A DNA stretch of 64,000 nucleotides from Candidatus Yanofskybacteria bacterium (GCA_016185545.1 JACPNJ010000001.1:22565-86564), one strand, 5' to 3'. Positions 22,665 to 61,887 are shown, counted from the first letter of the stretch. Notes: generated by a model not told the origin, from the sequence alone. Translations and numbers: made by a program.

Positions 22665-22962
22665 CGCTCATCCCCTGCCAATTTTTATCAGGTGTCCTCG
22701 CAGTACAAATAATATGTTGATTTTCTCGTTTTTCTGTCAGGCGAAGTTTCTTGTGGGCGGTGCTTTAGCCCGCCCATAGAATCTCCTCTGATAAAAAAAT
22801 CGTACCCCTTACGCTCACCCAGCCCCACTTTTATTCTAAAAGTGGGGCTGGGTTCGCTCCGTCCCAATTTTCTTTATCAGCGAAAAACTTCAAAAATCAA
22901 CATTTATTTGTTACTACTCAAGCCAATTGATAAAAATTGACAGGGGCTCGCTCTAGTCTAAA
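22665..22962. mobile_element. MITE-like repeat family A, copy 1 (about 295 bp, TIR CCCCTGCCAATTTTTATCA, internal hairpin CCCAGCCCCACTTTT...AAAAGTGGGGCTGGG)
   Basis: Near-identical to 55015-55262 except for a 53-bp internal insertion and a different but still self-complementary central hairpin. The two ends are inverted repeats of each other. Confidence 0.5.
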
Positions 22963-23116
22963 ATTCAGCTTTTTCAAGTTTTTTATGCAAGATGTCTTGT
23001 CAGAATACCACACGCTATTGACACGCTATAGGTCTATATGCTAACCTATTTTTGATGCTAGGGAGTCTAAAAAGCTCCGGCAGGTTGATCTTTTACAATT
23101 GACTACGGAGGGGATA

Positions 23117-23794
23117 ATGAAAATAAAACATAATAGCGGAAGATATGAGTTAGTTGATAGAAATTCAAAAAAGTTTTGGGAAGCAACTTGGAAAGATAAA
23201 AAGGTAACCGTTCGCTTCGGGAGAATAGGAACGGTTGGACAAACTTTACGAAAAACTTTTTTTAATGACGTGTCTGCTAATAGTTATTTTCACGACAAAA
23301 TTGAGGAAAAATGTCGAAAAGGATATAAGCTTGTAGGCACTGCGACTTATCCTCAAAGTGATTCCAATTCCCTGGTAATCTGCCATTCATATGTTGGGGA
23401 GCATACTGAGGAGGTAGCCAAGGGATTATGTCGGTGGCTTACGAAATGTTTAAAGAAAAAAATGCCCGTCATAGAGTTCGAGAAGATTTGGATGGAATTC
23501 AGGGAAAACGATGAAGGAGCAAAAGCAGTTCCCGGCTTTACGATTGTATATGGAGAAAAAGAATACTGGTCAGATAATCTTGATTTTTCAGAAGACCTTG
23601 TTCTCGACAGTATATACAAAAAAGCCGTAGAGAAGGGGGCGGACAGGTTCATCACCTTCAACAGCAATGGTTTTACCGATATTGTGGCAATACGCGGAAA
23701 ACCGACGCCACGGGAAATTGCCACCTTGGTTCTGGGTTCAGAAGAAAATGCTAGATATCAGATCGAAGAAGACGTGACTGGTGTATTAAGTTAA
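23117..23794 (+). CDS. WGR-domain protein (hypothetical)
   Basis: N-terminal 'KFWEATWKDKKVTVRFGRIGTVGQTLRKTF' is a WGR signature (W-G-R with conserved spacing). GGAGGGG RBS before the ATG at 23117. C-terminal 150 aa are unassigned. Confidence 0.5.
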   Translation: MKIKHNSGRYELVDRNSKKFWEATWKDKKVTVRFGRIGTVGQTLRKTFFNDVSANSYFHDKIEEKCRKGYKLVGTATYPQSDSNSLVICHSYVGEHTEEVAKGLCRWLTKCLKKKMPVIEFEKIWMEFRENDEGAKAVPGFTIVYGEKEYWSDNLDFSEDLVLDSIYKKAVEKGADRFITFNSNGFTDIVAIRGKPTPREIATLVLGSEENARYQIEEDVTGVLS

Positions 23795-23843: not shown

Positions 23844-23964
23844 TTTGTTTGTCCGCACACAGCGAATCGAGTCCTATCAAAAATTACAAACCCTAATCCC
23901 AGCCGTAGTTTTAGCAAAAACTACGGCTGGGTGATTTTTATCACTTCGATAATGAATTACTGCT

Positions 23965-24135
23965 AAAAATTAGAGCGAGGCCATTATGCCTCATAGCACC
24001 GTCAAAAGAGTGGATTGCACGGTTTGCGAGCAGTACAATAGTAAAGCACTGCGAGCAAAATCCACGCTTTTGACGGAATGCAGAATTCTCGCTGGGAATT
24101 CAAATGGTGATAGGAGGCATAATGGCGAGCGGATA
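23965..24135. mobile_element. MITE-like repeat family B, copy 1 (about 170 bp, TIR GCGAGGCCATTATGCC / GGCATAATGGCGAGC, long internal hairpin)
   Basis: Second copy at 53378-53548 with the same termini and the internal CCGTCAAAAGAGTGGATT / AATCCACGCTTTTGACGG inverted pair. Confidence 0.5.
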
Positions 24136-24152
24136 ATTTTTGATGGGGCGAA

Positions 24153-26170: not shown

Positions 26171-26356
26171 TTATAGCAAACCCAAATATTATGTCAATTG
26201 TTTGTGGATAACCAAAATACTGAGAATAACTCGGTTTTTTTACTCCCAGGGGGTGGGGAATTAAAAGACAAAGTGTTAGATATTTTTGGAAATTTCTGGA
26301 GTTTCTATAAATAAGCTCTAGAAATGAGCCATAGCAATAACTGATGCCTTTCTTTA

Positions 26357-27160
26357 CTTAGAGGCTCAGCCTCTAAGTAACCAACAACTTACAATTTTTG
26401 CCGAGACACCTCGGCTTTTATTTTACTTTCGCCGCACAGGTTACTTAGAGGTTGAGCCTCTAAGTAACCTGTGCTATAAGTTTAATCTATGAGAAAACTT
26501 CAATTTGAAAATGGAGAGTTTTATCACATATACAACCGGGGCAACAATAAAAGGCCTATTTTTATGAAATCTTTTGATTTGCAGAGATTTTTGCAAAGTA
26601 TGATTGAATTCAATGTAGATGGACCAATCGGAAGTATTTATGCCGTTTCTTTCAACAAAGAATCACTTAGAGGCTCAGCCTCTAAGTCGAGACGACCAGT
26701 TGATATTGTTTGTTATTGCCTAAATCCTAACCATTTTCATCTTTTAGTTAGACAGTTGGAAAACGATGGAATTAAGAATTTTATGCATAAATTAGGAACT
26801 GGATATACAATGTATTTTAATAATAAACACGAATTGAACGGTGGACTTTTTCAGGGGAGATATAAAGCAATTCACATAGATACAAATGATTATCTGTTGT
26901 ATTTAAGCGCTTATATCAATTTAAATCCTGAAGCCCATCAACTTAGAGGCTCAGCCTCTAAGTTGTGCCAATCAAGTTGGAATGAATATATCGGTGATAA
27001 ATCTAGCAAGGGTAAATTGTGCAATACCAGGATTGTATTGTCGCAGTTTGAAACCGTGGAGGGTTATAAAAAATTTGCCGAAAAGGCGCTCGGGGTGATT
27101 ATAGAGAAAAAAGAGATGGAAGAATCCCTGAAGCTTTTACTTAGAGGCTGAGCCTCTAAG
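26357..27160. repeat. REP-like 21-bp palindrome CTTAGAGGCT(C/G)AGCCTCTAAG, five copies (26357-26377, 26444-26464, 26666-26686, 26942-26962, 27140-27160)
   Basis: Exact or 1-mismatch copies read from the sequence. Copies 3 and 4 lie in frame inside the RAYT ORF (LRGSASK). Copy 5 contains the ORF's TGA stop. Confidence 0.7.
26489..27151 (+). CDS. REP-associated tyrosine transposase (RAYT) / IS200-like HuH Y1 transposase
   Basis: 'GEFYHIYNRGNNKRPIF' N-terminal RAYT motif, HuH motif 'NHFHLLV' and catalytic tyrosine context 'GGLFQGRYKA'. Confidence 0.75.
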   Translation: MRKLQFENGEFYHIYNRGNNKRPIFMKSFDLQRFLQSMIEFNVDGPIGSIYAVSFNKESLRGSASKSRRPVDIVCYCLNPNHFHLLVRQLENDGIKNFMHKLGTGYTMYFNNKHELNGGLFQGRYKAIHIDTNDYLLYLSAYINLNPEAHQLRGSASKLCQSSWNEYIGDKSSKGKLCNTRIVLSQFETVEGYKKFAEKALGVIIEKKEMEESLKLLLRG

Positions 27161-27294
27161 TGGCTATGGGCGCTTGCTTGGCGCTTTAAATTTTGTTATT
27201 ATTCTCAGCATGTCAGAAGTTAGTAGTACAACCCCGTTAGATATTTACGTTGTTAAGCAAACTAACGAGGTTAAATCGGGCATATTGTTAATTT

Positions 27295-29655: not shown

Positions 29656-29814
29656 ATGTCACAAGATAATCTAATAAAATTGAAGTGTGGGCAGTGCAAG
29701 CGCGTCAATTATTTTTCTACCAAGAATAAGAAATTAGTCACTCGCGCGATCGAGTTGAAAAAGTTTTGTAAGTGGTGCAGGAAACACACGCCACACAAAG
29801 AAGCCAAAAAATAG
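29656..29814 (+). CDS. rpmG: 50S ribosomal protein L33
   Basis: 'KLKCGQCKRVNYFSTKNKK...LELKKFCKWCRKHTPHKE' is the L33 zinc-ribbon consensus. The ORF-track N-terminal extension overlaps tRNA-Thr and was trimmed to the ATG at 29656. Confidence 0.85.
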   Translation: MSQDNLIKLKCGQCKRVNYFSTKNKKLVTRAIELKKFCKWCRKHTPHKEAKK

Positions 29815-29974
29815 CCACTCGCCATAGTACCCCTTGGGAACTTCAAAAATCCCAGCGAGATTTTTTCATCTTTTGTGATTGCCGCCATTTGTCAAGACAC
29901 TCACTTCGTTCGGTCATTGACAAAACCATGCTGGCGGCAACCCCAGAAGTCCCAAAAGGCACTATGGCTCGCTC
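29815..29974. mobile_element. MITE-like repeat family C (about 160 bp, TIR CCATAGTGCCTTTTGGGACTTC / GAAGTTCCCAAAAGGTACTATGG), inverted copy
   Basis: The reverse complement is about 90% identical to 55418-55579. Located between rpmG and tRNA-Trp. Confidence 0.5.
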
Positions 29975-29997
29975 TTGTTACCAGTAGTAATTAGACT

Positions 29998-55417: not shown

Positions 55418-55579
55418 AGCAAAGCCATAGTGCCTTTTGGGACTTCTGGGGTTGCCGCCAGCATGGTTTTGTCAATGACCGAGTTAAGCGAGTGTCTTGA
55501 CAAATGGCGGCAATCACAAAAGATGAGCCGAGCTCGCTGGAGCGAGGCGAAGTTCCCAAAAGGTACTATGGCGAAGCGA
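55418..55579. mobile_element. MITE-like repeat family C, copy 2
   Basis: Matches the reverse complement of 29815-29974. Its right TIR overlaps the last codons of cysS. Confidence 0.5.
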
Positions 55580-56963
55580 GTTTTTTGACTAGCGGGCCGT
55601 AGTTGGTATCTTCAATCTCGTAGCCGAGGTTTTTTATTTGGTCGCGGAGTTGGTCGGAGTGGATGAAGTCCTTGGCTTGGCGAATGGTTTCGCGCTCGCT
55701 TATTAGTTTTTGTATCTCCGGCGGTATTTCTTGTGATTTTTTAGGAATGATACTGAGAATTTGATCAAATTCATTTAGCATTTCCAAAGATTTTTTTGCA
55801 TCTTCACTGCTGATTTTTCTTTCATCAATCAACGGATTTACTTCTCTTACAAAATCAAACAAAGACGCAATTGCTTTGGGAGTATTAAAATCATCATCCA
55901 TTTCTTTTTCAAAATTTTCCTTTATTTTTTCAATCAATTCCAACTTAGGAGTTGAACTCCTAAGTAGAGATTTTTCAATATTTTTTAGGCGATTAGTAAA
56001 TTCGGCTAAACGATTTACTGCTGCCTCGGTTTGTCTCAGGTTTTCTTCGCTGTAATCAATAGGAGAGCGATAATAAGCCATCAGTATCATCATGCGTAAA
56101 GCTTCGGCTGGATATTTTTTTAAGGCGTCGCGTATTGTTATGAAATTGCCTAGCGACTTGGACATTTTTTGGCCACTGACGGTTAAAAATCCAGGGTGTA
56201 TCCAGTATTTGACGAATGGTTTTTTGCCGGAAATTGATTCCATTTGGGCAATTTCGGCTTCATGGTGTGGAAATATCAGATCTTGTGCGCCGCCATGCAG
56301 GTCGTATTGGAAACCGAAATGTTTTTCAGTCATAGCGGTATCTTCAATGTGCCACCCTGGACGGCCATAGCCAAGCTCGCTATTCCAACCCGGTTCCTCC
56401 AGCTTAGAAAATTTCCACAAGGCAAAATCGCCGCGATTTCTTTTTTTTATGCTTTCATCAATGCGGCTGACTGCATCTTCCGCTGATTGTGTTGTCCGTC
56501 CCGACAGTTTGCCGTAATCAGGAAATTTGACCAGGTCAAAATAATAACCGTCATCTTCGATGAGATAGGCGATACCCTTTTCAATCAGTTGTTTTACTTG
56601 GCTAACAATTTCCGGAATATATTGAGTTGCCGGAGCGTATTCCGAAACCGCAGTGATGCCGAGGGATTTCATGTCCTCGTAATATGCTTCTTTATATTCC
56701 AGCGCTAAATCAGCCGGATTAATCATTTTTTGTTTGGCCCGCTCAATAATTTTATCGTCAATGTCGGTAATGTTTTGCAGATAAAAAACTTCGTAGCCGC
56801 GATGCCGCAGATATTTGGCGACAACGTCAAAAACAACATAGGTTCTGGCATGGCCTATGTGCGAATAATCATAAACCGTTGGTCCGCAGACGAACATCCT
56901 GACTTTTGAGCCGGGTGAGAGAAATTCTTCTTTTTGGCGAGCTAGAGTATTATAGATTTGCAT
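55566..56963 (-). CDS. cysS: cysteine--tRNA ligase
   Basis: 'CGPTVYDYSHIGHAR' HIGH motif, 'KMSKSLGN' and zinc-binding Cys. Confidence 0.9.
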   Translation of the reverse strand: MQIYNTLARQKEEFLSPGSKVRMFVCGPTVYDYSHIGHARTYVVFDVVAKYLRHRGYEVFYLQNITDIDDKIIERAKQKMINPADLALEYKEAYYEDMKSLGITAVSEYAPATQYIPEIVSQVKQLIEKGIAYLIEDDGYYFDLVKFPDYGKLSGRTTQSAEDAVSRIDESIKKRNRGDFALWKFSKLEEPGWNSELGYGRPGWHIEDTAMTEKHFGFQYDLHGGAQDLIFPHHEAEIAQMESISGKKPFVKYWIHPGFLTVSGQKMSKSLGNFITIRDALKKYPAEALRMMILMAYYRSPIDYSEENLRQTEAAVNRLAEFTNRLKNIEKSLLRSSTPKLELIEKIKENFEKEMDDDFNTPKAIASLFDFVREVNPLIDERKISSEDAKKSLEMLNEFDQILSIIPKKSQEIPPEIQKLISERETIRQAKDFIHSDQLRDQIKNLGYEIEDTNYGPLVKKLASP

Positions 56964-59248: not shown

Positions 59249-59711
59249 GGAAGATAAAAATCAAAATAATATAAATTCGGATAGTTCTAAACCTGATTTA
59301 TCCGAGGAGTACCTGAATAACTGGAAGCGAGAGCGGGCGGATTTTATAAATTATAAAAAGGATGAAGCGCAAAGAATGGGGGAGTTCGTTAAATTTGCCA
59401 ATGAAAGTTTAATTTTGGAATTGTTGGATATCGTGGATGATTTGTATCTGGCCGCCAAGCAGGCAAAAAACGCCGGTTTAGACCAAGTTATTAAAAAGTT
59501 TGAGGATTTCTTAAAAAAATATGGAGTTGAGAAAATTAAGGTAAGCGATCCCGTAAAGTCGCCTGATGGCGACAACGGGGCAAGCAAATTTGACCCGATG
59601 ACACAAGAAATTGTTGAGGGAGCGGATGGGGAAAAAATAGAAGAAGTCAGGGCCGGCTATATGATGCATGGGAGAATCATTAGACCGACACGCGTTAAAA
59701 TAATAAAATAA
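59247..59711 (+). CDS. grpE: nucleotide exchange factor GrpE
   Basis: '[41 protein letters not shown]' GrpE long-helix region plus beta-domain. Carries the in-frame palindromic insert at 59547-59586. Confidence 0.8.
59547..59586 (+). repeat. in-frame GC-rich palindromic insert (family E) in grpE, encoding [15 protein letters not shown]
   Basis: CCCGTAAAGTCGCC-TGAT-GGCGACAACGGGG dyad. Two nearly identical copies in dnaK (60208-60249, 61573-61610). Confidence 0.6.
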
Positions 59712-59889
59712 TTTGATCGGGTCTAACCGAAGCATACCTCAGGCACGCTTCGCCGCTCCAGCGGCGGCTTCGCTATTTCGTCTCGCGGATTTAATTTTTG
59801 ATGAAAGATATATTTTATCAAAAATTAACCAAGCAATCCGTTCGTCGGAATGCCTGGAGCATGCCTCTGTTAGACCCCTAAATAATACT

Positions 59890-61887
59890 ATGCCTAAAGT
59901 TTTAGGGATTGATCTGGGAACTACAAATAGCGCGATGGCGATTGTGGAAATAGGTCAGCCGAGGGTATTGGAGAATAAAGAGGGGATGAGAACTACACCT
60001 TCGGTGGTTGCCGTTGGTAAAAACGGCGAGCGTTATGTGGGTGTGACCGCCAAGCGCCAAGCTGTGACCAATCCAGCCAATACTATTTTTTCCGTAAAGC
60101 GACTTATAGGGCGCCGGTTTTCAGATACCGAAGTTCAGCATGATAAACAACTTTTGTCTTACGAAATACGCGAGGGATCAAACAATGATGTTGAAATCAA
60201 GATGGGAGACCCCGTAAAATCGCCTGGTGGCGATAACGAGACAGGCAAGTGGCATAAGCCGGCGGAGATTTCAGCGATGATTTTGCAAAAACTTAAAGCT
60301 GATGCTGAAGATAAGCTGGGTGAAAAAATTACCGATGCCATTATCACGGTGCCGGCGTATTTTGACGATTCACAGCGTAAAGCCACGAAAGACGCAGGCG
60401 AAATTGCAGGACTCAACGTTAAGCGCGTCATCAACGAGCCGACGGCGGCCGCTCTTGCCTATGGTTTCAACAAGAAAAAAGACGAAAAAATTGTAGTTTA
60501 TGACTTTGGCGGCGGGACTTTTGACGTTTCAGTGCTTGAAGTTTCCGAAGATACAATAGAGGTTAAAGGTACGGGTGGTGATACCCATTTAGGCGGCGAT
60601 GATCTTGACCAGCGAATTATCCAGTATTTGATAGACGAATTTAAAAAAGAGCAGGGCGTTGATGTGAGCAAAGACCAATTGGCTGTACAGCGGCTCAAAG
60701 ATGCGGCCGAGAAAGCCAAGCACGAACTGTCCAGCACAATGCAAACCGAAGTAAATATTCCTTTCCTGACCGCGGACGCCAGCGGCCCGAAGCACTTTTC
60801 AATGACATTTACGCGGGCCAAGCTGGAAGATTTGGTTAAGGATTATATTGATAAATCAATTGAACTGACCGGGAAAACCGTAAAAGAAGCCGGGCTTAAG
60901 CTTTCTGATATCAATGAGGTAATCTTGGTAGGCGGACAAACCAGAATGCCGGCCATAATTGAAGCGGTTAAAAAATTATTCGGCAAAGAACCGCACAAAG
61001 ATATAAATCCTGATGAAGTTGTAGCGGTTGGTGCGGCTATTCAAGGAGGTATAATGCTGGGCGATATACGCGATGTATTACTGCTTGATGTCACCCCGCT
61101 TTCGCTTGGTATTGAAACGCTTGGCGGAGTAATGACTAAAATGATAGAAAAAAACACTACCGTGCCGACCGCCAAAACCCAAACATTCTCAACTGCCGCT
61201 GACAATCAACCGTCAGTTGAGATACATGTCTTGCAAGGCGAGCGAGCGATGTCAACGGACAACAAAACGCTTGGTAAGTTTATACTTGATGGTATACCCC
61301 CGGCTCCCCGAGGTGTGCCGCAAGTTGAGGTTACTTTTGATATTGATGCCAATGGTATACTGAATGTCAAAGCTAAAGACAAGGCTACAAACAAGGAACA
61401 GTCAATCAGAATCGAGGGGTCGTCTGGCTTAACTGACGATGAAAAGAAAAAAATGACCGCTGATGCGGAGAGATTTGCCGTTGAGGATGCGAAAAAGAAA
61501 GAATTGGTAGATGCCCGCAACATGGCGGAAACGCTTGTTTATTCAACGGAAAAAGCATTGAGAGATATTGGTGACCCCGTAAAATCGCCTGACGGCGATA
61601 ACGGGGCAAGTAAAATTAGCGCTGAGGAACGCAAAAATATTGAGGATAAAGTTGCAGCATTGAAGGATGCCCAGAAAAGCGAGGATGTTGGCACGATTAA
61701 AAAAGCCACGGAAGAATTGTCCGCGGCGGCACAAAAAATAGGGGAGGTGTTGTATAAACAAGCAACTCCGAAAAGTGGCGATGCCACCTCGGGGCAAGCA
61801 GGCGAGCAAAAAACGGCCGCCGAAGGCGAGCCGCGCCCTGCTGGGCGGGAAGAGAAAAAAGATGAGGGGGAACAGAAAGCGGAGTGA
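59890..61887 (+). CDS. dnaK: molecular chaperone DnaK (Hsp70)
   Basis: '[18 protein letters not shown]', '[17 protein letters not shown]', '[13 protein letters not shown]' and the substrate-binding domain. Start trimmed to the ATG at 59890. Two in-frame 14-15-aa inserts ([15 protein letters not shown]; [15 protein letters not shown]). Confidence 0.9.
60208..60249 (+). repeat. in-frame palindromic insert (family E) in dnaK nucleotide-binding domain
   Basis: GACCCCGTAAAATCGCCTGGTGGCGATAACGAGACAGGCAAG; falls where E. coli DnaK has the short loop 'GQKMAPPQ'. Confidence 0.6.
61573..61610 (+). repeat. in-frame palindromic insert (family E) in dnaK C-terminal lid
   Basis: GACCCCGTAAAATCGCCTGACGGCGATAACGGGGCAAG; the encoded peptide is identical to the grpE copy. 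Confidence 0.6.

What the first reader, a model, noticed from the sequence alone, without database searches (positions are those of the whole stretch)
23965..24135. Related MITE-like families B and C (TIR core CCAT(T)A(T/G)TGCC), including a composite C-fragment/B copy
Family B copies at 23965-24135 and 53378-53548 have TIR GCGAGGCCATTATGCC / GGCATAATGGCGAGC and a long internal hairpin. Family C copies at 29815-29974 (inverted) and 55418-55579 have TIR CCATAGTGCCTTTTGGGACTTC / GAAGTTCCCAAAAGGTACTATGG. The termini of B and C resemble each other. A lone family C left TIR (53338-53370) abuts family B copy 2. Family C copy 2 overlaps the last codons of cysS, and copy 1 sits between rpmG and tRNA-Trp. 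These are non-autonomous elements likely mobilised by one transposase type.
Basis: seen in the sequence. Interest (0 to 1): 0.55.

Follow-up and report, generated by a model that had tools for sequence, protein, structure and literature searches.

The report
Nested foldback mobile repeats in Yanofskybacteria
The B and C repeats are real: they belong to one larger family of about 165-base mobile DNA elements with no genes of their own, found in a groundwater candidate-phyla-radiation bacterium, and they fold into a conserved three-armed hairpin on one strand only, though no enzyme that moves them was found.

Summary
B copy 2 does not sit beside a lone C terminus. It lies inside a complete C-type shell, which is itself inside two further inverted-repeat shells.

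The host is a Candidatus Yanofskybacteria (CPR) MAG, not a cyanobacterium.

B and C are subtypes of one superfamily. A covariance model also finds a fifth window copy (E, 59717-59880) and D, E and G subtypes in relatives.

All copies share a terminal helix, a long hairpin with a conserved 7-nt bulge GC(A/U)YGGU, and a short hairpin with loop CGCUGG.
- 94.6% of cells pair, and 38 of 45 pairs show double changes.
- G-U pairs outnumber A-C pairs 33 to 4, and every copy scored (all but three later relatives' copies) folds better on one strand. Selection therefore acts on a single-stranded form.

Mobility is shown by empty sites in relatives (dnaB/recR overlap; a 75-bp cysS-dnaB spacer) and by a 98%-identical copy in a genome whose housekeeping genes are about 74% identical.

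The grpE-dnaK copy is syntenic and more conserved than dnaK itself.

No matching transposase was found. Short NGAG direct repeats flank most non-E copies, but their register is ambiguous. My leading guess is HUH-type ssDNA transposition, which is inferred, not shown.

The parts
23965..24143 (+). B1. The CM core is 23970-24135. The terminal helix has flanks AAAAATTA/TAATTTTT. The 7-nt bulge GCACGGT is at 24017-24023 and the P3 loop CTCGCTGG at 24088-24095.
   Evidence: 171 bits. Short-read contigs L001, L002 and L124 break inside its right end.
53378..53553 (+). B2. The CM core is 53383-53547. It is nested inside the C3 shell and lies antisense to dnaB-recR.
   Evidence: 162.7 bits.
53338..53372 (+). 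Left arm of the C3 shell, a C-type terminus (GGCGGAGGCCATAGTGCCTTTTGGGACTTC).
   Evidence: 100% match to C1/C2 over 26 nt.
53550..53583 (+). Right arm of the C3 shell (GAAGTTTCCAAAAGACAGTATGGTGAAGCC).
   Evidence: (I5).
53302..53332 (.). Left arms of the two outer shells: AATATCTGATTTT (53302-53314) and CCCAATAAATTAG (53320-53332).
53582..53616 (.). Right arms of the two outer shells: CTAATTTATTGGG (53582-53594) and AAAATCAGATATT (53604-53616). The outermost arm contains the dnaB stop codon.
   Evidence: The outermost shell is shared with relative L136.
29812..29978 (-). C1, between rpmG (stop at 29812-29814) and tRNA-Trp (29998). It lies antisense to both.
   Evidence: 131.7 bits.
55414..55581 (+). 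C2. Its right terminus supplies the last codons and the TAG stop of cysS.
   Evidence: 134.9 bits; absent from L136.
59717..59880 (-). E. This fifth, divergent family member fills the grpE-dnaK spacer, lies antisense, and is syntenic in relatives.
   Evidence: (41.6 bits, E about 1e-10).
22665..22958 (-). A1. A longer foldback repeat with the same GAGCGAG...GAGCG ends, starting directly after the L25 stop codon. It is related only through its termini.
55015..55250 (-). A2, the second copy of the longer foldback repeat, in the cysS-dnaB spacer.
26489..27151 (+). RAYT-like Y1/HUH transposase gene, the only transposase-like gene found among the ten window ORFs scanned. It is a candidate mobiliser, but no link to B or C was shown.

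Best explanation
B and C are two subtypes of one superfamily of foldback elements, about 165 nt long and with no genes of their own, found in Candidatus Yanofskybacteria (CPR). They are or were mobile.

**Architecture.** Each element is a three-way junction:
- P1, a terminal helix formed by the 'TIRs', with a purine-rich interruption near its base;
- P2, a long hairpin carrying the conserved bulge GC(A/U)YGGU;
- P3, a short hairpin with the loop (U)CGCUGG.

Helix sequences are free to change as long as pairing is kept. The loops and the outer 6 bp of P1 are conserved in sequence.

**Shown here:**
- the common architecture and its covariation;
- selection on one strand only;
- insertion relative to close relatives;
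- nesting inside other hairpin shells;
- recent spread between genomes;
- purifying selection on the syntenic grpE-dnaK copy.

**Inferred, roughly 35-40% likely:**
- The elements move as folded single-stranded DNA, handled in trans by an HUH (Y1) transposase of the RAYT/IS200 kind.
- They insert next to an NGAG tetranucleotide, preferentially at the tips or feet of existing hairpins such as terminators or other copies. That would explain the Russian-doll nesting and the NGAG direct repeats.
- Once in place, the helix flanked by an A-run and a T-run acts as a bidirectional terminator or mRNA 3'-end structure. That would explain why copies sitting on gene ends are tolerated and why some become fixed.
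For: **One family**
- CM R1, built from 8 copies, recovers all copies at 130-171 bits and finds new ones at 42-110 bits.
- 100 unrelated loci (754 kb) gave no chance hit below E = 0.01. The only strong hit there, L009, is a real copy identical to L122.

**Structure**
- 94.6% of 445 cells pair.
- 38 of 45 pairs show changes on both sides.
- 0 of 500 shuffles reach these values, and slid controls pair at about 38%.

**Strand specificity**
- G-U 33 against A-C 4.
- All 10 copies scored (of 14 found) are more stable forward than reverse-complemented, by 2-21 kcal/mol.
- Family A shows the same, by 20-23 kcal/mol.

**Insertion**
- dnaB and recR overlap (ATGA) in L125 and L127 (gene calls give the same 4-base overlap in L128 and L129). 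The window has a 395-bp nested insert there.
- The cysS-dnaB spacer is 75 bp in L136 (DnaB 95% identical) and 600 bp, holding A2 and C2, in the window.
- The spacer between L25 and the 179-aa ORF is 22-30 bp in L135 and L130, and 1488 bp in the window.

**Recent spread**
- B1 and B_L118 are 98.2% identical at different loci, while prfA and dnaB of the two genomes are 74-75% identical at the DNA level.

**Nesting and NGAG**
- G_L137 carries a 30-nt palindrome in its P2 apex with a clean CGAG duplication.
- NGAG flanks P1 on both sides in the B, C, D, G, A and C3 copies. GGAG/GGAG pairs cannot be explained by base pairing.

**Constraint**
- E orthologues are 81-84% identical, dnaK DNA is 72-77% identical, and dnaK third codon positions are 55% identical.

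**Candidate enzyme class**
- A RAYT-like Y1 gene is the only transposase-like gene among the 10 window ORFs scanned, and its family is abundant in Patescibacteria.
Against: - No enzyme is linked to the elements. The RAYT-like gene is flanked by, and contains, a different palindrome (ACTTAGAGGCTCAGCCTCTAAGT).
- No homologue was seen at the same position in the RIFCSPHIGHO2_01_FULL_44_17-like genome, which does carry B, D, G and C-type copies.
- IS200/IS605 elements do not have complementary ends, and REPINs are built from REP doublets. Neither fits exactly.
- The NGAG repeats shift register by 1 nt between copies. They are absent from three of the four grpE-dnaK copies, the E-type ones.
- Orientation does not follow the replication strand. 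In the window, four copies are on the G-rich strand and two on the other.
- G-T wobble cannot separate ssDNA from RNA, so an RNA-level function explains the same asymmetry.
- The sample is small: 14 copies from about 6 genomes, some of them orthologous or near-identical.
Confidence: 0.55

Rival explanations
1. Classical MITEs. They would be deletion derivatives of an insertion sequence, cut and pasted as double-stranded DNA by a DDE transposase that binds the TIRs, leaving a 3-4 bp duplication at a preferred NGAG target.
For: - The elements have TIRs, small size, no ORF and several copies, and empty sites exist in relatives.
- NGAG direct repeats flank P1, and a nested palindrome in G_L137 has a clean 4-bp CGAG duplication.
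- The outermost shell at dnaB-recR looks like a TA-flanked TIR element.
- Features that define MITEs are listed in PMC3184786.
Against: - No parent IS or DDE transposase appeared in anything that could be searched.
- The strong strand asymmetry and the conserved unpaired motifs are not expected for a dsDNA substrate.
- The repeat register is inconsistent.
- Between subtypes, TIR sequence is conserved only in the outer 6-10 bp, while inner pairs covary.
- B1 and B_L118 share sequence beyond the NGAG, so NGAG is at least partly inside the mobile unit.
Confidence: 0.22
2. A family of functional structured RNAs: small RNAs, or cis-acting mRNA or terminator elements. The forward-strand transcript would be the selected product, and the copies would be gene duplicates that also get carried around.
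For: - G-U outnumbers A-C, internal loops are purine-rich, and loop and bulge sequences are conserved while helices covary.
- P1 is followed by a T-run in most B and C copies, like an intrinsic terminator.
- The grpE-dnaK copy is syntenic in the window, L125 and L139, and more conserved than dnaK DNA.
- Bacillus bcr1 is a precedent: a transcribed repeat of about 155 bp with compensatory changes (PMC3184786).
Against: - No Rfam family matches, even at permissive thresholds.
- No conserved promoter lies upstream.
- Most copies are antisense to their neighbours, so the forward RNA would need its own promoter.
- Nesting inside other copies, truncation of gene ends, and a 98% identical copy in a distant genome are behaviours of mobile DNA.
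- In L137 the grpE-dnaK spacer holds a different subtype (C-type, 71% identical to C1).
Confidence: 0.18
3. Ordinary intergenic hairpins or terminators that resemble each other by chance or by convergence, and are not a repeat family.
For: The elements sit at gene 3' ends and are flanked by A-runs and T-runs.
Against: - The copies are 78-98% identical over 165 nt.
- CM E-values range from 1e-10 to 1e-50, and there was no chance hit in 754 kb of unrelated DNA.
- Relatives have 22-75 bp spacers at the same sites.
Confidence: 0.01

Closest known systems
bcr1 repeat of the Bacillus cereus group, and similar RNA-structured orphan repeats such as ERIC/IRU
   Same: About 155 bp, non-coding, dispersed and with insertion polymorphism between related strains. 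Structure is kept by compensatory base changes, and no transposase is known (PMC3184786).
   Different: bcr1 has clear 5-bp direct repeats and is known to be transcribed. Here the flanking repeat is a 3-4 nt NGAG with ambiguous register, and transcription is untested. The fold is a three-way junction with conserved bulge and loop motifs, the copies nest inside each other, and the host is a CPR bacterium.
REPINs (REP doublets forming hairpins) mobilised by RAYT transposases
   Same: Non-autonomous and hairpin-forming in ssDNA or mRNA, with frequent compensatory changes and long persistence in a lineage. An HUH Y1 transposase family is present in the genome (PMC3116915).
   Different: These elements are not built from two inverted REP units. 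The RAYT-like gene in the window is flanked by a different palindrome. One copy shows recent transfer between genomes, whereas REPINs are described as vertically inherited.
Classical bacterial MITEs (for example Correia/CREE, RUP, Nezha)
   Same: TIRs, small size, no ORF, several copies. They insert at or into gene ends and can donate stop codons or promoters.
   Different: No parent IS and no clean TSD were found. There is strong single-strand asymmetry, and sequence conservation lies in loops rather than along the TIRs.
IS200/IS605-derived non-autonomous elements (PATE-type)
   Same: A strand-specific folded substrate and insertion next to a specific tetranucleotide without a true duplication. 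This picture could explain the NGAG on both sides.
   Different: Those elements have non-complementary ends, each with its own subterminal hairpin. Here the two ends pair with each other, and no tnpA or tnpB remnant is present.

Membership tests
MITE | Small (under about 600 bp), no transposase or other ORF | tested here: met
   The elements are 158-200 nt, and no ORF is conserved across copies.
MITE | Terminal inverted repeats | tested here: met
   P1 is 13-25 bp. However, both ends carry (N)GAG on the same strand, which is a conserved departure from inverted symmetry.
MITE | Target-site duplication flanking each copy | tested here: inconclusive
   - NGAG lies on both sides in the B, C, D, G, A and C3 copies: CGAG/CGAG in B_L122 and C1, GGAG/GGAG in D_L128 and G_L137.
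- There is one clean CGAG duplication around a nested palindrome.
- The register shifts by 1 nt in B1, B2 and B_L118. C2 has CAAA/GAAG. E-type copies lack the repeat.
- The near-identical B1 and B_L118 share sequence outside it.
MITE | Insertion polymorphism or several dispersed copies | tested here: met
   Five full copies and one shell lie in 64 kb. Empty sites are seen in L125, L127-129, L130, L135 and L136.
MITE | A parent IS with the same termini encoding the transposase | tested here: inconclusive
   None was found in the ten window ORFs scanned, about 220 kb of relatives' loci, plasmids or viral contigs.
REPIN / REP-RAYT system | Unit made of two inverted REP sequences plus a spacer, forming a hairpin | tested here: not met
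   The fold is a three-way junction with distinct P2 and P3 arms. No repeated REP unit occurs within the arms.
REPIN / REP-RAYT system | Cognate RAYT gene flanked by the same repeat | tested here: not met
   The RAYT-like ORF 26489-27151 is flanked by, and contains, ACTTAGAGGCTCAGCCTCTAAGT, not B or C sequence. It scores 31 bits on NF047646, below the cutoff of 80.
REPIN / REP-RAYT system | Hairpin kept by compensatory changes | tested here: met
IS200/IS605-type ssDNA elements | Strand-specific folded ends; insertion 3' of a fixed tetra- or pentanucleotide; no TIRs; no duplication | tested here: inconclusive
   Strand specificity is met. An NGAG next to both ends is compatible. The absence of TIRs is not met.
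Any described RNA family (Rfam 15) | Covariance-model match | tested here: not met
   No hit on any copy, at gathering or permissive thresholds.
Integron attC site | R''/R' core sites RYYYAAC ... GTTRRRY at the two ends of an imperfect hairpin | tested here: not met
   Read directly: the ends are GCCATW.../...WATGGC with NGAG flanks, and there is no GTTRRRY core.
bcr1/ERIC-like transcribed structured repeats | Transcribed, with RNA-level structure | not testable with these tools
   The structure and G-U bias fit. No expression data were available.

The most novel reading that the evidence does not exclude
The three-way-junction element may be a self-contained functional nucleic acid. That could be a new class of structured RNA, for example a guide, scaffold or catalytic RNA that works with a Patescibacteria-specific protein. 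Alternatively it could be an ssDNA replicator with its own recognition code, in which the conserved bulge GC(A/U)YGGU, the CGCUGG loop and the NGAG sites are the functional contacts. On this reading the 'MITE' behaviour is how the molecule spreads, and the conserved grpE-dnaK copy is a domesticated or original functional locus.
Probability: 0.12. Interest if true: 0.8.

Novelty: new variant of a known kind. Interest (0 to 1): 0.5.

Why it matters
CPR/Patescibacteria genomes are usually described as small and streamlined. I found no description of MITE-, REP- or REPIN-like repeats in them in the searchable literature.

This 64-kb window holds at least five copies of one structured element, a nested composite, a second foldback family, a RAYT-like gene with its hairpins inside its own reading frame, and in-frame palindromes inside dnaK and grpE. 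Together these suggest an active hairpin-based mobilome in this lineage.

The elements reshape gene ends. They give new stop codons to cysS and Lon, and they separate dnaB from recR, which otherwise overlap. They also break short-read assemblies.

The family gives a concrete test case for two questions: whether selection acts on ssDNA or on RNA, and whether a selfish repeat has become a host element at grpE-dnaK. The covariance model makes a census of CPR genomes straightforward.

Tried and rejected
1. **Cyanobacterial origin and known cyanobacterial MITEs or SDRs.** Rejected. The window has no HIP1 (GCGATCGC) sites, and protein relatives are Yanofskybacteria/Parcubacteria.
2. **Genome-collection scan with GCCATWRTGCC-N(85-115)-CTCGCTGG.** The pattern was too loose for 596 Gb. 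Only L118 and L009 turned out to be real.
3. **Plasmid BLAST and two viral-contig scans.** No hits.
4. **Rfam at permissive thresholds.** Nothing.
5. **Known folds considered by eye.**
   - Retron msr/msd was dropped: the order of arms is wrong, there is no RT, and the elements are multi-copy.
   - Hammerhead and other small ribozymes were dropped: no core motif and no Rfam hit.
   - Integron attC was dropped: no GTTRRRY core.
   - CIRCE/HrcA operator was dropped: only half-site resemblance, with the wrong spacing.
6. **Tandem G.A motif.** I considered that the CGAG...CGAG flanks form an RNA tandem G.A pair. This fits CGAG/CGAG but not GGAG/GGAG in the D, G and C3 copies, so a direct-repeat (insertion) origin is more likely.
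7. **Composite transposons.** I considered that A1...B1 (carrying the WGR gene) and A2...C2 are composite transposons. The inner spacers share no homology, so this is unsupported.
8. **TA duplications (IS630-type).** These fit only the outermost shell at dnaB-recR, not B or C.
9. **A conserved RAYT position.** The 220-aa ORF at the RAYT position in L133 is not a homologue.
10. **Look-ups that found nothing.** The second RAYT paralogue P0250 and cysS are not on record.
11. **Promoter scan.** No convincing promoter for the forward strand of B or C.

Full report
**1. The observation**

- B1 and B2 are 78% identical. C1 and C2 are 87.5% identical.
- The core GCCATWRTGCC, allowing one mismatch, occurs 12 times against 3.7 expected. 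Ten of the 12 lie in the elements.
- Folding is far better than for shuffled sequence (z = -9.6 and -7.9).

One statement needs correcting. The C left terminus at 53338-53372 has a partner at 53550-53583 (pair I5), so B2 sits inside a C-type shell. Two more inverted-repeat shells surround that one: 53320-53332/53582-53594 and 53302-53314/53604-53616. The outermost contains the dnaB stop codon. The region 53285-53625 folds as a single nested hairpin of -139.5 kcal/mol.

**2. The host**

There is no HIP1 site and GC content is about 42%. The nearest DnaB and PrfA proteins are from Candidatus Yanofskybacteria/Parcubacteria MAGs. An identical PrfA lies on a 132-kb Yanofskybacteria contig. The host is therefore a CPR/Patescibacteria bacterium.

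**3. One family, not two**

B and C share three things.
- The outer P1 sequence.
- A motif CTCGCTGG about 97 nt after the left end. It has four hits in the window, all in the elements.
- GCAYGGT at the same alignment position.

A metagenome scan with a three-motif pattern gave two more B copies, L122 and L123. L118 (the same locus as L123) and L009 (the same as L122) were real hits hidden in an otherwise wasted genome scan.

BLAST and a covariance model (R1) then found:
- D copies in L118, L128 and L139;
- a G copy at dnaB-recR in L137;
- an E subtype that fills the grpE-dnaK spacer in the window (59717-59880, minus strand), L125 and L139.

With filters off, the window holds five full members plus the C3 shell. 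One hundred unrelated loci (754 kb) gave no chance hit below E = 0.01.

**4. Anatomy**

Every copy folds into the same three-way junction.
- P1 is formed by the two 'TIRs'. Its outer 6 bp, GCCAUW/WAUGGC, are conserved. Its inner pairs covary.
- P2 is a long hairpin with a 7-nt bulge GC(A/U)YGGU on its 5' side.
- P3 is a short hairpin whose stem differs in almost every copy (GAATTC, GCAACC, GCGGCC, AAAAATC, GCCGC) while its loop CGCUGG stays the same.

On the 10-sequence alignment, 94.6% of cells pair and 38 of 45 pairs show changes on both sides. None of 500 shuffles reaches the observed values on four of the five measures (27 of 500 reach it for further pair types), and slid controls pair at about 38%.

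**5. Selection on one strand**

In the consensus pairs there are 33 G-U cells and 4 A-C cells. All ten copies are more stable forward than reverse-complemented, by 2 to 21 kcal/mol. Family A shows the same, by 20-23 kcal/mol.

This cannot be GC-skew mutation bias. Forward strands lie on both genomic strands (B1, B2 and C2 on plus; C1 and E on minus), while skew is uniform across the window. Selection therefore acts on a single-stranded form, either ssDNA or RNA. The two cannot be told apart from sequence alone.

**6. Mobility**

*The dnaB-recR junction.* dnaB and recR overlap by ATGA in L125 and L127, and the gene calls show the same 4-base overlap in L128 and L129. The window has 395 bp between them. 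L136 has a different 272-bp insert that shares only the outermost shell. L137 has a G copy there.

*The cysS-dnaB spacer.* It is 75 bp in L136 (DnaB 95% identical) and 600 bp, holding A2 and C2, in the window. The comparison places the C2 end at ...GGCGAAGCG(AG)|TTTTTT and shows that C2 replaced the last cysS codons.

*The spacer between L25 and the 179-aa ORF.* It is 22-30 bp in L135 and L130. In the window it is 1488 bp, holding A1, a WGR gene and B1.

*Other signs.*
- Short-read contigs end inside B1.
- B1 and B_L118 are 98.2% identical at different loci, while prfA and dnaB DNA of the two genomes are 74-75% identical. That implies recent spread between lineages.
- The same spacers are occupied by different subtypes in different genomes. 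grpE-dnaK holds an E-type in three genomes and a C-type in L137. The region upstream of dnaB holds D in L128, an E-like copy in L139 and A2 in the window. This suggests preferred sites.

**7. Flanking repeats**

On the forward strand, a purine tetranucleotide lies just outside P1 on both sides.
- CGAG/CGAG in B_L122 and C1.
- GGAG/GGAG in D_L128 and G_L137.
- GTAG/GGAG, GGAG/GAAG, CGAG/TGAG and TGAG/CGAG in other copies.
- B1, B2 and B_L118 have an extra G.

These are read.

G_L137 carries a 30-nt palindrome inserted in its P2 apex, with an exact CGAG on each side where other copies have a single CGAG.

CGAG/CGAG could pair as C:G, G.A, A.G, G:C, but GGAG/GGAG cannot. A direct-repeat origin is therefore more likely: either a target duplication, or a fixed cleavage and target tetranucleotide as in IS200/IS605 elements (established knowledge of that family). 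The register is not clean, and three of the four grpE-dnaK copies, the E-type ones, lack the repeats, so this stays inconclusive.

**8. Constraint**

E orthologues are 81-84% identical. dnaK DNA is 72-77% identical, its third codon positions 55%, and grpE 60-66%. At least this copy is under purifying selection, so the family is not only decaying junk.

**9. The enzyme**

Only ten of the window's ORFs, those near the elements, were scanned against Pfam; the rest were not checked for transposases. Among those ten, the only transposase-like gene is a RAYT-like Y1/HUH ORF (26489-27151). Its family has thousands of Patescibacteria members. Its own palindrome differs from B and C, and no homologue is at that position in L133. 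No DDE transposase or parent IS was seen. Whole-genome searches were no longer possible.

**10. Interpretation**

The core claim has high confidence. These are non-autonomous, structure-constrained foldback repeats that insert at gene ends and into each other.

The mechanism is an inference: ssDNA handling by an HUH enzyme next to NGAG, followed by tolerance or co-option as bidirectional terminators (A-run, helix, T-run). I put it at about 35-40%.

The rivals are a DDE-mobilised MITE with a 4-bp duplication and a functional RNA family. Seven independent insertions are antisense to their neighbours, against two or three in the sense orientation. This is not significant and remains unexplained.

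**11. Comparison with known kinds**

The closest analogues are bcr1/ERIC-type structured orphan repeats and REPINs (PMC3184786, PMC3116915).
- MITE membership fails only on the unproven duplication and the missing parent IS.
- REPIN membership fails on the REP-doublet and cognate-RAYT tests.
- No Rfam family matches.

I found no report of such repeats in CPR bacteria. I rate this a new variant of a known kind, of moderate interest.

Noticed in passing
window 26356-27172 (ORF 26489-27151): The RAYT-like Y1 transposase gene carries its 23-bp palindrome ACTTAGAGGCTCAGCCTCTAAGT inside its own reading frame. Two copies are in frame and encode LRGSASK, one spans the stop codon, and two lie upstream. 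Homologues have L-x-G-S-x-x-K (LSGSTTK, LSSSATK) at the same protein positions, so the hairpins look like a conserved part of the gene.
   Followed up: partly
window 59541-59587 (grpE), 60202-60248 and 61567-61613 (dnaK): Palindromes of about 36 nt (GACCCCGTAAAATCGCCTGGTGGCGATAACGGGGCA) are inserted in frame in grpE and twice in dnaK. They add 12 residues ([13 protein letters not shown] / [13 protein letters not shown]) that are absent from the DnaK of L125, which is otherwise about 95% identical. GrpE of L125 has one at a different position. They resemble Rickettsia palindromic elements.
   Followed up: partly
L137 8316-8515 (minus strand): The family member at dnaB-recR in a relative has a 30-nt perfect palindrome, CCCCGTTACTCAACTAGTTGAGTAACGGGG, inserted in its P2 apex and flanked by an exact CGAG duplication. 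Its ends resemble the in-frame dnaK/grpE palindromes.
   Followed up: partly
window 22665-22958 and 55015-55250: Family A is a 240-290 bp foldback repeat with the same GAGCGAG/GAGCG ends. It has a hairpin module that differs completely between the two copies at the same position, and an extra 54-bp insert in A1. A TTGACA-16-TAAAAT promoter-like site at 22937-22964 points out towards the WGR gene. Each A copy lies within 1 kb of a B or C copy.
   Followed up: partly
window 53213-53607; L136 2326-2597; L137 8309-8848; L139 11351-11743: The dnaB-recR junction is a hot spot. In some relatives the two genes overlap by 4 bp. In four genomes, including the window, the junction holds unrelated or differently nested hairpin inserts of 272-540 bp. 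The annotated GTG start of recR at 53263 is probably wrong. Homology puts the start at the ATG at 53212, giving 198 aa.
   Followed up: partly
window 23877-23932, 51548, 51792-51826, 20767; L136 about 2350; flanks of B_L118: A further repeat ends in (C)AAAAATTACAAAC and is often followed by a CCCAGCC...GGCTGGG hairpin. It forms the shell around the B copy in L118.
   Followed up: no
L122 2575-2600 (Lon 3' end): A solitary C-like right terminus (AAAAGGTATTATGGCCGGAGCG) follows the B copy and supplies the last codons and TAA stop of Lon. This parallels cysS and C2 in the window. The same contig appears in a GTDB genome labelled Candidatus Saccharibacteria (L009). If that label is right, the family crosses CPR classes.
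   Followed up: partly
window 23099-23794: A WGR-domain protein gene lies between A1 and B1, in a 1.5-kb segment that is absent from relatives L130 and L135. It may be cargo or an independent insertion.
   Followed up: no
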